Assembly (NCBI RefSeq): GCF_056746865.1
Contig: NZ_CM163382.1
Length of the DNA: 64,000 nt
Reading direction: 5' to 3' (one strand)
Shown here: piece after piece, positions 18,001 through 21,000 of the stretch
Layout of the letters: every line of letters begins with the position of its first letter
How positions within the stretch are numbered: the first letter of the stretch is position 1
Made by a program: the position numbers

Positions 18001-21000
18001 TAACTAAGTTGTCTGCATCATCAGTTATAGCCAGATAATTGTTATTGTTAACTGACCAGATAATTAAGGGAACCTATGGAAATAAAGACACGGAGAGAAA
18101 CCAGGCAGACGTTGGCGCAGTGGTTTGAAGAGAAGGGATTTCAGAAGGGATTTCAGAAGGGATATAAAGAGGGACTCCGGAAGGTAAGGCTGGCACAGCG
18201 TCTTCTGAGTAAAGGAATGTCTCGGGAAGACGTTGCAGAGATGGCAACTTTATCTCTTACAGAGGTTGATAAGCTAATTAACTCTAACTAAGTTGTCTGC
18301 GTTATGAATTATCGCTTACAGATAACATGGCAATGAATAACTGGCGCCATCAGCCGTAGCGCCAGTTAAGTATTACACCAGCTCGACTATTTTGTTGTCG
18401 ATCAGGCGGGCATCGCCAAGCCAGGCGGCTACCAGAATCACTGCACGTTTGCTGTTTTCAGAGACCTCCAGCAAGGTGTCGGCATCACGAATCTGAATAT
18501 CATCGGCGCGGAAGCCTTTTTCATTCAGTTCTTGCCCGGCAATAGTAATAATTTCATCGAGATCCCGTTCGCCAGCCTGCAATTTGTCGGCAATCGAACT
18601 TAAAACCTTGTACAGACCAGGCGCAATTTTGCGTTGTTCCGCCGTCAGATAACCGTTACGGGAACTCAGCGCCAGACCGTCTTTGGCGCGCATAATTGGC
18701 ACACCGACAATCTCAATATCAAAGCCCATATCAGCAACCATTTTGCGGATCAGCGCCAGTTGCTGAAAATCTTTTTCACCGAAGCAGGCGATGTCCGGCT
18801 GGACCAGATTGAACAGCTTGCTGACGATAGTCGAAACGCCGCGAAAATGTCCCGGACGGCTGGCACCTTCCAGCATGGTAGAAAGACCGGGAACATCAAC
18901 ATAGGTGTGGGTTTCTGTACCGTTCGGGTAGATCTCTTTTACCGAAGGGGCGAAAACTAAATCCACTTTGCGCTTGTTCAGCTTTTCGCAGTCCTCTTGC
19001 AAGGTCCGTGGATAACGTGCCAGATCTTCCGGGCGGTCGAACTGCATCGGGTTAACGAAAATACTGACGACGACCACATCGGCGCGGGCTTTGGCTTCGT
19101 CGACCAGCTTCATATGGCCGTCGTGCAGGTTACCCATGGTGGGCACCAGCGCCACGCGCTTACCTTCCATACGCAGGCGGCGGATTTGCTGACGCAGCAG
19201 CGGCAGGGTTTCGATAATTAACACAACGTCACTCCTTAATGGAAACTGTGTTCTTCGCCCGGATAAACGCCGGACTCCACTTCAGCCATATACTGCCGCA
19301 CAGCCGCGCGGATGTCGCCCGTTTCGGCGAGGAAATTTTTGGCGAATTTAGGAATATGACCGCCGGTAATGCCGAATGCGTCGTGCATCACGAGAATTTG
19401 CCCGTCAGTGACGTTGCCTGCGCCAATGCCAATAACCGGGATCGCCAGTGCTTCGGTAATACGTTTTGCCAGTTCAACCGGCACGCACTCCAGTACCAGC
19501 AGTTGTGCCCCAGCAGCTTCTAAAGCTAATGCATCGCTGAGCAGTCGATCGGCCGCTTCATCGCCGCGCCCCTGGACTTTGTAGCCACCGAAAATATTCA
19601 CTGACTGTGGGGTTAAACCTAAGTGACCACAAACAGGAACGGCACGTTCGGTCAGCATTTGTACGGTTTCTACCAGCCACTCACCGCCCTCAATTTTGAC
19701 CATGTTGGCACCGGCACGCATGACAGTCGCGGCGTTTTCAAAGGCTTGTTCTGGTGTGGCATACGCCATAAACGGCAGATCAGCCAGCAGCAGACAGTTT
19801 GGCGCACCGCGACGTACAGCAGCAGTGTGGTAGGCGATATCGGCAACGGTAACTGGCAGAGTTGAGTCATGCCCCTGAACCGTCATGCCCAGTGAATCGC
19901 CAACCAGCATGACGTTAAGCCCTTCATCGGCAAACAGTTTTGCGAAGCTATAGTCGTAAGCGGTGATGGTCGCGAAACGTTTTTTTTCTTGTTTGCATTT
20001 TTGCAATGAAGCAATAGTGGTTGGTTTCATAACGTATCCTGATAAGTAATGTCGTGCTGTCTGGCATTTTATCAGTCACATTGGTGGGGGCAATGATTTA
20101 TCAATTACAGCACCGCCAGATGATGGCGGTGCGGTTAAACCTGTTACTCGTAGGTGACCTGGAATGTACTGGTAGCCTTAAATCCGCCGGGTTTCACAGT
20201 TGCATTACCATCGCGTTTTAATGTTGCCTGAAATTTCAGGTCCTGGGTTGTAGTACGACCGTTGGCATTAGGATAATCTGGGTTATAAATTCCATTGTTT
20301 TCTCCAGGATCATCTTCAGCATCGTTATAGCTTGATGTCTCATCATTTGGCTTAAGCGTGAAATTTTGTGAATTTTTGCTGTTGGGTAACCCTTCAATAA
20401 GTACTCCGGCACCTTTTGCATCATCGGTTCCTGTCAAAGTATTACCAAGCAACAGAGGATTATTCACTCCTACTACATTAGATTTTAGTTTTGTTTTAAT
20501 ACTGCTTATACGAACACAATTTTGTAGCGAGATCTGAAAATTAACAGGTGTTGCAGAATCTGAGGTGATCTGTCCAACAGTATATTCCCCGAGATTTACG
20601 GTTGATCGCGTTACGCTCTCACCCAAAAGGATAGACGTAAAGCATGTTGGCAGTTGGATATTGATGTCTGTTAAATTAAAATTGATTTTTAGCATCTTAG
20701 ATGCACTTACATTTGGAACCCCTGGCCCTTCATTTGCGAATGAATACAAATAATCACCAGTATGTTTTAATTGCACGTTAGTATTTGGAGCAGGGTTAAA
20801 ACTGCTGTCGGTATAGAATTTGGATTTGCCCCTATATTTCCAGACACCTGTTATCACTTAACCCATTACTGGCCCGCTGCCGTAGATATTCCCGTGGCGA
20901 GCGATAACCCAGTGCACTATGCGGATGCCATTCGTTATAATGCTCGAACGCCTCTGCAAGGTTCTTTGCTGCCGTTAACCCGTCTGGTTTAGGCATGATA

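What the first reader, a model, noticed from the sequence alone, without database searches (positions are those of the whole stretch)
18010..18310. Partial tandem duplication of the rpnC 3' module creating a free-standing RpnS-like 71-codon ORF
Immediately downstream of rpnC there is a second, diverged copy of its last roughly 200 bp. It shares the blocks TGGCGCAGTGGTTTGAAGAG and CGTCTTCTGAGTAAAGGAATGTCTCGGGAAGACGTTGCAGAGATGGCAA and the post-stop sequence CTAAGTTGTCTGC. The copy has its own ATG (18076) and an AAGGGA ribosome-binding site, and it encodes 71 aa with the conserved TLAQWFEE and AQRLLSKGMSREDVAEMA...DKLIN blocks. Its central linker carries a different short tandem repeat (AGGGATTTCAGA x2, KGFQKGFQ) from the EVRQ array in rpnC. 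If the intragenic tail protein of Rpn nucleases acts as an antitoxin, this would be an extra, independently expressed antitoxin-like or decoy copy. I cannot tell from memory whether this small ORF is annotated anywhere.
Basis: partly seen in the sequence, partly recalled or inferred. Interest (0 to 1): 0.7.

Follow-up and report, generated by a model that had tools for sequence, protein, structure and literature searches.

The report
Known spare rpnC tail gene (rpnCSs)
Just downstream of the E. coli nuclease-toxin gene rpnC lies a real, separately encoded 71-codon copy of that gene's tail, but it was already published in 2023 as rpnCSs and is annotated in RefSeq, so it is confirmed rather than new.

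Summary
Bases 18108-18325 are a diverged tandem copy of the rpnC 3' end plus about 30 nt of its 3' flank (17788-18038). A 67-nt segment found nowhere else (18041-18107) supplies an AAGGGA ribosome-binding site, ATG 18076 and an 11-codon leader, giving a 71-aa ORF (18076-18291).

It is not new. Zhong et al. 2023 (PNAS, PMC10400941, Fig. [quoted passage not shown] RefSeq annotates this exact protein (WP_000404121.1, 'hypothetical protein' or 'RpnC/YadD family protein'). The junction occurs in 1555 of 5426 complete E. coli genomes, only at this locus, and in E. marmotae.

Function is untested. What I add:
- The repeat-bearing helix of RpnCSs differs in length from that of the adjacent RpnC in 27 of 28 distinct allele pairs. 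The published assay shows one extra 4-aa repeat abolishes neutralisation, so a simple back-up antitoxin for its neighbour is unlikely.
- Fused alleles show the copy recombines onto rpnC.
- Its start and leader are not the rpnC internal start, unlike rpnE/ypaA.

Verdict: real, already known, low interest.

The parts
17063..18007 (+). rpnC (yadD), full-length Rpn nuclease RpnC_L, 314 aa
   Evidence: ORF. RefSeq annotates it as rpnC. It matches TIGR01784 (Rpn family) at E 1.8e-83.
17770..17788 (+). Internal SD-like GGGAGGGGAG (17770-17779) and in-frame ATGATG (17783-17788). This is the presumed internal start of RpnC_S (MMTLAQWFEE..., 74 aa).
   Evidence: Sequence. The paper shows internal initiation for rpnC in K-12. 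The exact start in this allele is inferred.
17788..18038 (+). Upstream copy of the duplicated unit: the rpnC tail from the TLAQWFEE codons to the stop, plus about 31 nt of 3' flank
17818..17911 (+). 12-nt (4-aa) tandem array in rpnC (RQEG/RQEV..., 7.8 copies). Its copy number varies between strains that carry the identical downstream ORF.
   Evidence: TRF. RpnC is 306, 310 or 314 aa beside the same 71-aa protein, and carries a 40-residue linker in L061.
17793..17812 (+). Conserved block 1 (20 nt), identical to 18113-18132; a crossover site
   Evidence: Protein P0018 is an rpnC N-terminus fused to the rpnCSs body from TLAQWFEE onward.
17921..17969 (+). Conserved block 2 (49 nt), identical to 18199-18247; a crossover site
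   Evidence: The rpnC of strain RIVM_C039629 equals the window's rpnC up to this block and then carries the rpnCSs tail TLSLTEVDKLINSN. That strain has no second copy.
18041..18107 (+). Junction segment unique to this locus. It carries the RBS, the start codon and the 11-codon leader MEIKTRRETRQ.
   Evidence: No significant similarity to rpnC upstream sequence or to the 3' flank. It is found only at this locus, in 1555 of 5426 genomes, always at 95% identity or more.
18066..18071 (+). AAGGGA Shine-Dalgarno-like site, 4 nt before the ATG
   Evidence: It is conserved in 11 of 13 spacer alleles; the two Escherichia sp. alleles have AAGAGA.
18076..18291 (+). rpnCSs: free-standing RpnS-like ORF, 71 aa (RefSeq WP_000404121.1)
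   Evidence: It matches the C-terminal end of TIGR01784 (profile 213-273 of 273) at E 2.7e-10. Named in PMC10400941.
18108..18325 (+). Downstream copy of the duplicated unit
18131..18163 (+). 12-nt array AGAAGGGATTTC, 2.8 copies (KGFQKGFQKG), the variable repeat of rpnCSs
   Evidence: TRF. Alleles with 59 to 77 aa differ here in steps of 2 or 4 aa.
18339..18367 (.). GC-rich hairpin AACTGGCGC...GCGCCAGTT between the convergent rpnCSs and panC genes; a likely shared terminator
   Evidence: RNA fold of 18286-18385: -27.9 kcal/mol, z -2.74. It fails the T-run rule of the terminator scan, so the role is inferred.

Best explanation
The ORF at 18076-18291 is rpnCSs, a separately encoded paralogue of the RpnC C-terminal small protein RpnC_S.

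Origin. It arose by tandem duplication of the last ~250 nt of rpnC with its 3' flank. It acquired a new RBS, start codon and 11-residue leader from a 67-nt junction segment.

The protein. It keeps the RpnS layout: a long first helix holding a variable 4-aa repeat array, followed by a short helix-turn-helix-like pair.

Likely mechanism (inferred, not shown):
- It is co-transcribed with rpnC/rpnCS.
- It is translated from ATG 18076.
- It dimerises through the long helix, as RpnS proteins do.

Relation to the neighbouring RpnC. Its helix length is almost never matched to that of the adjacent RpnC. The cognate antitoxin of the resident nuclease is therefore most probably the internally initiated RpnC_S, not this copy.

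What the copy demonstrably does at the DNA level. It serves as a homologous partner for crossovers at two conserved blocks. These crossovers put a different tail on rpnC and delete the copy. That route produced the fused alleles seen in other strains, and probably the single-copy K-12 form.
For: Identity:
- The paper describes exactly this gene and its origin from rpnC.
- RefSeq annotates it.
- Homology to the rpnC tail is 91% over 91 nt, with an identical 49-nt block.
- It matches the Rpn family C-terminus at E 2.7e-10.

Maintained as a gene:
- The ORF is intact in all 28 distinct allele pairs and in 16 of 16 evenly spread RefSeq genomes.
- It is present in E. marmotae and other Escherichia lineages, with spacer and leader conserved.
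- pN/pS is 0.24-0.44 for the most divergent pairs, measured over 46 codons outside the repeats.
- The RBS is conserved.

Fold: the AF2 model has three helices, 6-45, 50-56 and 61-70. This matches the published description of RpnAS as a three-helix bundle with a long first helix.

Not length-matched:
- Linker lengths differ in 27 of 28 pairs, by -16 to +32 residues.
- The identical 71-aa protein sits beside RpnC of 306, 310 and 314 aa.
- The paper shows that only an RpnCS with the same repeat number blocks RpnCL.

Recombination:
- RIVM_C039629 carries a fused rpnC.
- P0018 is a fusion at block 1.
- K-12 RpnC ends ...KVINLI and carries the copy-2 type 3' flank. Free-standing allele P0064 has the same ending.

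Co-transcription: no terminator-like or promoter-like site lies between the genes.
Against: - Translation of RpnCSs has not been shown anywhere. The paper tagged only RpnESs/YpaA.
- The repeat-mismatch rule rests on one experiment, a KGIE insertion in K-12 RpnC. It may not hold for differences that are not multiples of 4 aa, such as the 14 residues here.
- 71% of complete E. coli genomes lack the gene, so it is dispensable.
- pN/pS values rest on few sites and reach 0.7-2 in close comparisons.
- Neither DUF4351 nor any other Pfam-A model scores significantly.
- Foldseek did not recover the RpnAS structure.
- My allele sample is small, 28 pairs out of 1555 genomes.
- About 1.2 equal-length pairs are expected from random pairing of the observed lengths (my arithmetic). 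The data therefore show no co-variation; they do not show active avoidance of a match.
Confidence: 0.85

Rival explanations
1. Redundant or back-up antitoxin. RpnCSs binds the C-terminal domain of the neighbouring RpnC_L and blocks its nuclease activity, raising antitoxin dosage.
For: - It shares the RpnS layout and a nearly identical C-terminal module with RpnC.
- RpnS proteins block RpnL.
- One allele pair (L021 type) has equal linker length, 28 vs 28.
- rpnC_L is found inactivated while the small genes stay intact in several genomes. This pattern is seen in toxin-antitoxin loci.
Against: - Linker length is unequal in 27 of 28 distinct pairs and in 16 of 16 spread RefSeq genomes.
- RpnC repeat number changes while RpnCSs stays identical.
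- The published assay shows a single-repeat mismatch abolishes protection.
- Even in the equal-length pair, the two linker sequences listed differ at many positions.
Confidence: 0.2
2. Tail-switching cassette. The main selected role is at the DNA level. The copy would be a stored alternative tail that homologous recombination can move onto rpnC, changing toxin-antitoxin specificity in one step.
For: - Fused alleles exist with crossovers in both conserved blocks.
- The same C-terminal variants (…TLSLTEVDKLINSN, …ALSLAEIDKLINSN, …KVINLI) occur both as rpnC tails and as free-standing copies.
- The paper also notes loss by fusion.
Against: - Each fusion destroys the cassette, so it works only once.
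- It does not explain why the ORF, RBS and leader are kept intact.
- No reciprocal or gene-conversion products that retain both copies were looked for.
Confidence: 0.3
3. Decaying by-product of an unequal crossover with no function. The ORF stays open only because it is short and its indels are 12-nt slips that preserve the frame.
For: - It is absent from 3871 of 5426 complete genomes.
- PGAP flags some copies as incomplete or pseudo.
- Rare disrupted forms exist, P0043, P0069 and P0078.
- pN/pS is near or above 1 in some close comparisons.
Against: - It is intact across E. coli phylogroups, E. marmotae and other Escherichia lineages.
- The non-homologous leader and RBS are conserved at 95% or more in all 1555 genomes.
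- pN/pS is 0.24-0.44 at larger divergence.
- The copies PGAP flags as pseudo in Nissle/CFT073 and in CP53 have open reading frames.
Confidence: 0.12
4. Guard against non-self Rpn toxins or phage factors. A mismatched RpnS would neutralise incoming plasmid or prophage Rpn nucleases with a matching tail, or soak up a phage-encoded trigger or inhibitor.
For: This is conceptual only. RpnS specificity is set by repeat number, and the copy always differs from the resident one.
Against: - No homologue was found in 50,697 phage records.
- Hits in the plasmid collection are on very large records (0.4-4.9 Mb) annotated rpnC/yadD, or are short partial matches.
- No partner toxin was identified.
Confidence: 0.08

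Closest known systems
rpnCSs of Zhong et al. 2023 (PNAS 120:e2307382120, PMC10400941, Fig. 2I)
   Same: [quoted passage not shown] It derives from rpnC, varies by 4-aa repeats, and can be lost by deletion or by fusion with the rpnC N-terminal part.
   Different: Nothing differs in kind. The text I read from the paper does not mention three things:
- the non-homologous leader and start;
- how often the gene occurs (1555 of 5426 genomes);
- the lack of length matching with the adjacent RpnC.
The supplement was not available.
ypaA / rpnESs downstream of rpnE in E. coli K-12
   Same: It is a free-standing tandem copy of an rpn tail on the same strand. Like this one, it differs from the upstream tail by repeat content, one extra KLEG unit. 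The protein was detected by tagging.
   Different: - ypaA starts immediately after the rpnE stop and retains the same RBS and internal start (AAGGAGAGATTAATG, MTIAERLRQEG) as RpnE_S.
- rpnCSs sits 68 nt downstream and uses a new RBS, a new ATG and an 11-residue leader with no counterpart in rpnC.
- The paper infers an independent origin.
Intragenic RpnS antitoxins (RpnA_S, RpnB_S, RpnC_S; RpnA_S structure PDB 7TH0)
   Same: It has the same domain: a long first helix with a repeat insertion site plus two short helices. The AF2 model shows helices 6-45, 50-56 and 61-70, matching the structural description.
   Different: - It is encoded as its own gene rather than from an internal start.
- Neutralising activity is untested.
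- No significant sequence or Foldseek hit to a solved Rpn structure was obtained.
Free-standing DUF4351 (PF14261) / HTH_Rpn_C (PF27070) small proteins
   Same: The paper says separately encoded RpnS genes are annotated as DUF4351 in some species. Close relatives of this ORF carry precomputed weak PF27070 hits.
   Different: This protein does not reach significance for DUF4351; only 2 of 34 family members reach E<=0.1. PF27070 did not appear in any result of the scans I ran, so it was not independently tested.

Membership tests
RpnS / RpnSs small proteins (Rpn C-terminal domain proteins, Zhong et al. 2023) | Sequence homology to the C-terminal tail of an Rpn nuclease | tested here: met
   91% nt identity over 91 nt to the rpnC tail. 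Matches TIGR01784 profile positions 213-273 of 273 at E 2.7e-10. Aligns with RpnC tails, with 24 invariant columns.
RpnS / RpnSs small proteins (Rpn C-terminal domain proteins, Zhong et al. 2023) | For the 'Ss' class: a separate ORF directly downstream of its parent rpn gene, on the same strand | tested here: met
   rpnC ends at 18007 and the ORF starts at 18076, both on the + strand. The same 68-nt spacing was seen in almost all of the more than 50 loci where both genes were called.
RpnS / RpnSs small proteins (Rpn C-terminal domain proteins, Zhong et al. 2023) | Strain-to-strain variation in the number of 4-aa (12-nt) repeats in the first helix | tested here: met
   12-nt array at 18131-18163. 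Alleles of 59-77 aa differ in this segment only.
RpnS / RpnSs small proteins (Rpn C-terminal domain proteins, Zhong et al. 2023) | Three-helix fold with a long first helix that forms the dimer interface (RpnA_S, PDB 7TH0) | tested here: inconclusive
   The AF2 model has helices 6-45, 50-56 and 61-70, with mean pLDDT 71, which fits the description. Foldseek against the PDB gave no hit below E 0.29 and did not list 7TH0. The dimer was not modelled.
RpnS / RpnSs small proteins (Rpn C-terminal domain proteins, Zhong et al. 2023) | The small protein is actually translated | not testable with these tools
   Only sequence signals are available: AAGGGA 4 nt before the ATG, conserved across alleles. 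The paper tagged RpnESs, not RpnCSs.
RpnS / RpnSs small proteins (Rpn C-terminal domain proteins, Zhong et al. 2023) | Binds its RpnL partner and blocks its toxicity; requires an equal repeat number | not testable with these tools
   Indirect evidence only: linker length is unequal to the adjacent RpnC in 27 of 28 allele pairs, against the published matching requirement.
Pfam DUF4351 (PF14261) | Significant match to the family HMM | tested here: not met
   There is no hit for the 71-aa protein at E<=10. Only 2 of 34 aligned relatives reach E<=0.1.
Pfam HTH_Rpn_C (PF27070) | Significant match to the family HMM | tested here: inconclusive
   Precomputed 'weak' hits exist on relatives that are 89-90% identical (P0010, P0012). 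None is recorded for this exact sequence. The family did not appear in any scan I ran.

The most novel reading that the evidence does not exclude
Free-standing RpnSs copies are not spare antitoxins for their neighbours. They would be deliberately non-cognate tail modules.

Evidence so far:
- In 27 of 28 rpnC/rpnCSs allele pairs the repeat helix has a different length from the adjacent nuclease. The same is true for rpnE/ypaA in K-12.
- Both conserved blocks serve as crossover points that graft the stored tail onto the toxin gene.

If correct, the locus would be a one-step specificity-switching device for a toxin-antitoxin defence system. Alternatively, it could be a neutraliser reserved for non-self Rpn toxins.
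Probability: 0.3. Interest if true: 0.5.

Novelty: already known. Interest (0 to 1): 0.2.

Why it matters
The gene belongs to the Rpn toxin-antitoxin antiphage family, in which specificity is set by the number of 4-aa repeats in a dimerising helix. Its existence is published, so the finding adds no new entity.

What remains open is why about 29% of E. coli strains keep a second, separately encoded tail. That tail is not length-matched to the resident toxin. The answer would show how these systems change specificity and how toxin-antitoxin pairs stay matched while their repeat arrays expand and contract.

The survey here gives a concrete and cheap experiment: test matched and mismatched RpnCSs against RpnC_L.

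Tried and rejected
- Pfam-A scan of the protein and of 34 relatives: nothing significant, only weak generic HTH and low-complexity hits.
- Sequence search of the PDB: only a designed repeat protein (8vd6), matching through the HTH-like segment; no Rpn entry.
- Foldseek of the AF2 model against the PDB: generic HTH folds (TrpR, resolvase, DeoR), all with E >= 0.29.
- PADLOC: no hit for the small protein and only noise for RpnC.
- Promoter and terminator scan of 17500-18450: no promoter-like site. The one terminator-like site lies inside the ORF (18232-18248) and is within the number the shuffles give.
- Derivation of the leader and RBS from rpnC upstream sequence, or from the 3' flank beyond 18325: alignment scores are within the shuffle range, so this was rejected.
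- Search for another genomic source of the 72-nt junction with sensitive blastn: it occurs only at this locus.
- Phage-encoded homologues (decoy idea): none.
- Plasmid-borne copies: hits are on very large records (0.4-4.9 Mb) annotated rpnC/yadD, or are short partial matches.
- Exceptional nucleotide conservation of the spacer as a sign of an RNA element: rejected. Its identity (91-100%) is similar to that of panC (91-97%) in the same strains.
- Rfam: no RNA family in or near the feature.
- The antisense ORF at 18074-18247 (57 aa) is the mirror of the repeat region and has no support.
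Full report
**Context.** The window is E. coli chromosome. The gene order is yadE, panD (16409-16789, -), rpnC/yadD (17063-18007, +), a 71-codon ORF (18076-18291, +), panC (18373-19224, -) and panB. In K-12, rpnC is followed by panC after only 73 nt. 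This strain therefore carries about 290 extra bases at that point.

**Checking the observation.**
- The 20-nt block is at 17793-17812 and 18113-18132.
- The 49-nt block is at 17921-17969 and 18199-18247.
- The post-stop motif is at 18004-18016 and 18288-18300.
- AAGGGA is at 18066-18071, four bases before ATG 18076.
- The repeat finder gives 91% identity over 91 nt for the C-terminal module and 84% over 31 nt across the stop codons.
- TRF finds the two different 12-nt arrays, 7.8 copies in rpnC and 2.8 perfect copies in the small ORF.
- The post-stop homology continues to 18038/18325. Its score is 30, while the best of 1000 shuffles is 25.

On the left, homology begins at 17788/18108, at the TLAQWFEE codons. 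Upstream of that point no alignment beats shuffles. The duplicated unit is therefore 17788-18038 against 18108-18325. The 67 nt at 18041-18107, which hold the RBS, the ATG and the leader MEIKTRRETRQ, have no detectable source in rpnC, in the 3' flank or anywhere else in 5426 E. coli genomes.

**What it is.** The ORF is already annotated and published.
- RefSeq lists the identical protein as WP_000404121.1. It is called 'hypothetical protein' in older annotations and 'RpnC/YadD family protein' in newer ones.
- Zhong et al. [quoted passage not shown] They name it rpnCSs and show it clusters with RpnC_S, which indicates origin from rpnC. They note that 4-aa repeat variation extends to the RpnSs proteins. 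[quoted passage not shown]
- No other paper in the held library mentions it.
- They showed translation only for the K-12 analogue ypaA/rpnESs, and they did not test the function of either downstream copy.

**Family tests.**
- The protein matches the C-terminal end of the NCBIfam Rpn model (TIGR01784, profile 213-273 of 273, E 2.7e-10).
- It reaches no significant Pfam-A hit in the scans I ran, and DUF4351 is not met.
- Relatives that are 89-90% identical carry precomputed weak PF27070 (HTH_Rpn_C) hits.
- An AlphaFold2 model built on 34 relatives (mean pLDDT 71) has one long helix (6-45) and two short ones (50-56, 61-70). This fits the published description of RpnA_S as a three-helix bundle whose long first helix forms the dimer interface and holds the repeat insertion site.
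- Foldseek gave only generic HTH folds with E >= 0.29, so the fold test is inconclusive.

**Distribution and conservation.**
- The junction and leader (18017-18110) occur in 1555 of 5426 complete E. coli genomes (28.7%). Identity is always 95% or more, the site is always chromosomal, and it is essentially always this locus. Carriers include CFT073, Nissle 1917 and ST131.
- Homologues with the same leader are found in E. marmotae and unnamed Escherichia species.
- Alleles run from 59 to 77 aa. They differ mainly in the repeat segment and in a mosaic of C-terminal variants.
- The ORF is intact in all 28 distinct rpnC/rpnCSs allele pairs I extracted, and in 16 of 16 RefSeq genomes taken at even steps down the hit list.
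- Outside the repeats (46 codons), pN/pS is 0.24-0.44 for the most divergent pairs. It is noisy, up to 2, for close ones.
- The spacer is about as conserved as panC, not more.
- No phage homologue exists, and there is no clearly plasmid-borne copy.

**Relation to the neighbouring toxin.** I defined the linker as the residues between WFE[ED] and R[LF]L[SN]KG.
- In this window RpnC has a 36-residue linker and RpnCSs a 22-residue linker.
- Across 28 distinct pairs the lengths differ in 27, by -16 to +32 residues.
- The identical 71-aa protein sits beside RpnC proteins of 306, 310 and 314 aa.
- Random pairing of the observed length distributions would give about 1.2 equal pairs (my arithmetic). 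The two arrays therefore drift independently.
- The paper shows that adding one KGIE repeat to either RpnC_LS or RpnC_S abolishes protection, and adding it to both restores protection.
- By inference, RpnCSs is usually not a cognate antitoxin of the adjacent RpnC_L. That role belongs to the internally initiated RpnC_S (SD-like 17770-17779, ATGATG 17783-17788).
- The K-12 rpnE/ypaA pair is also mismatched, by one KLEG unit.

**Recombination.**
- Strain RIVM_C039629 has a single rpnC. It is identical to the window's rpnC up to the 49-nt block and then carries the rpnCSs tail (…ATLSLTEVDKLINSN) and the rpnCSs 3' flank.
- Protein P0018 is the equivalent fusion through block 1.
- K-12 RpnC ends …KVINLI, and its 3' end aligns with the copy-2 3' flank. 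This is the 'long' ending typical of the downstream copy, as in free-standing allele P0064. All upstream copies in tandem loci end …KLIN, …KLIS or …KLSN. The K-12 single-copy form is therefore probably itself a fusion product; this is an inference.
- These data agree with the paper's remark on loss by fusion.

**Expression signals.** No promoter-like or terminator-like site separates rpnC from the ORF. A GC-rich hairpin (18339-18367) lies between the ORF and the convergent panC gene. Co-transcription with rpnC/rpnCS is the simplest reading, but it is inferred. Unlike ypaA, which retains the parent's RBS and internal start immediately after the rpnE stop, rpnCSs uses a new start and a leader that has no counterpart in rpnC.

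**Verdict.** The entity is already known (rpnCSs) and annotated. The 'extra antitoxin' idea is untested and, on the length-mismatch evidence, unlikely in its simple form. The mismatch survey, the distinct leader and the fusion examples are modest additions that make a defined experiment possible. Interest is low (0.2).

Noticed in passing
L005 1488-2432; L015 1512-2432; L034 712-1585; L052 536-1432; L056 560-1432; L060 and L068 (RefSeq flags): In several genomes the long nuclease RpnC_L is knocked out by independent nonsense or 1-nt frameshift mutations. In L005 the stop lies just upstream of the internal start. The small downstream rpnCSs stays intact in all of them. This toxin-loss pattern is typical of toxin-antitoxin loci. 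Some cases come from short-read assemblies and could be sequencing errors.
   Followed up: partly
L043 10216-11313 (K-12 rpnE and ypaA): ypaA/rpnESs begins right after the rpnE stop and reuses the same RBS and start as the internal RpnE_S (AAGGAGAGATTAATG). It carries one extra 4-aa unit (KLEG) compared with the RpnE tail. PGAP annotates it as an incomplete pseudogene, although the paper detected the protein.
   Followed up: partly
L042 1299-1466 (Nissle 1917 derivative), L073 540-707 (CFT073), L059 521-700 (CP53): PGAP marks rpnCSs in these strains as 'transposase' or 'hypothetical protein, incomplete, missing N-terminus'. In all three the full ORF, with the MEIKTRRETRQ leader, is open. This looks like an annotation artefact.
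   Followed up: yes
L061 922-972 (strain PKF11, NZ_CP156706.1): A site-specific integrase gene sits directly downstream of rpnCSs where panC normally lies. This suggests an island inserted in the rpnCSs-panC spacer.
   Followed up: no
E. coli genome searches: The junction segment gives 1558 places in 1555 genomes, with up to 3 places in one genome. A few strains may therefore carry further amplified copies of the unit. I could not identify which records.
   Followed up: no
window 18031-18040 and 18056-18065: A 10-nt direct repeat, CCAGATAATT, brackets the start of the unique junction segment. It may be a trace of how the junction formed.
   Followed up: no
L047/L048 1457-1501: One allele class (RpnC 302 aa, RpnCSs 75 aa with leader MDITARRETRQ) has a 43-nt rather than a 68-nt spacer. 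Its junction is only about 83% identical to the window's. This is a divergent version of the same architecture.
   Followed up: no
window 17063-18372 versus panC 18373-19224: rpnC-panC is listed as a convergent 'excludon' (overlapping transcription) in K-12 (PMC12288877). In this strain any such panC read-through would be antisense to rpnCSs.
   Followed up: no
window 51735-51780, 59901-59987, 60826-60935: Rfam hits above the gathering score: HtrA 5' UTR thermometer, t44 RNA and CssrA sRNA. They are unrelated to the finding.
   Followed up: no
L073 789-994 (CFT073): RefSeq annotates panC as frameshifted in CFT073.
   Followed up: no
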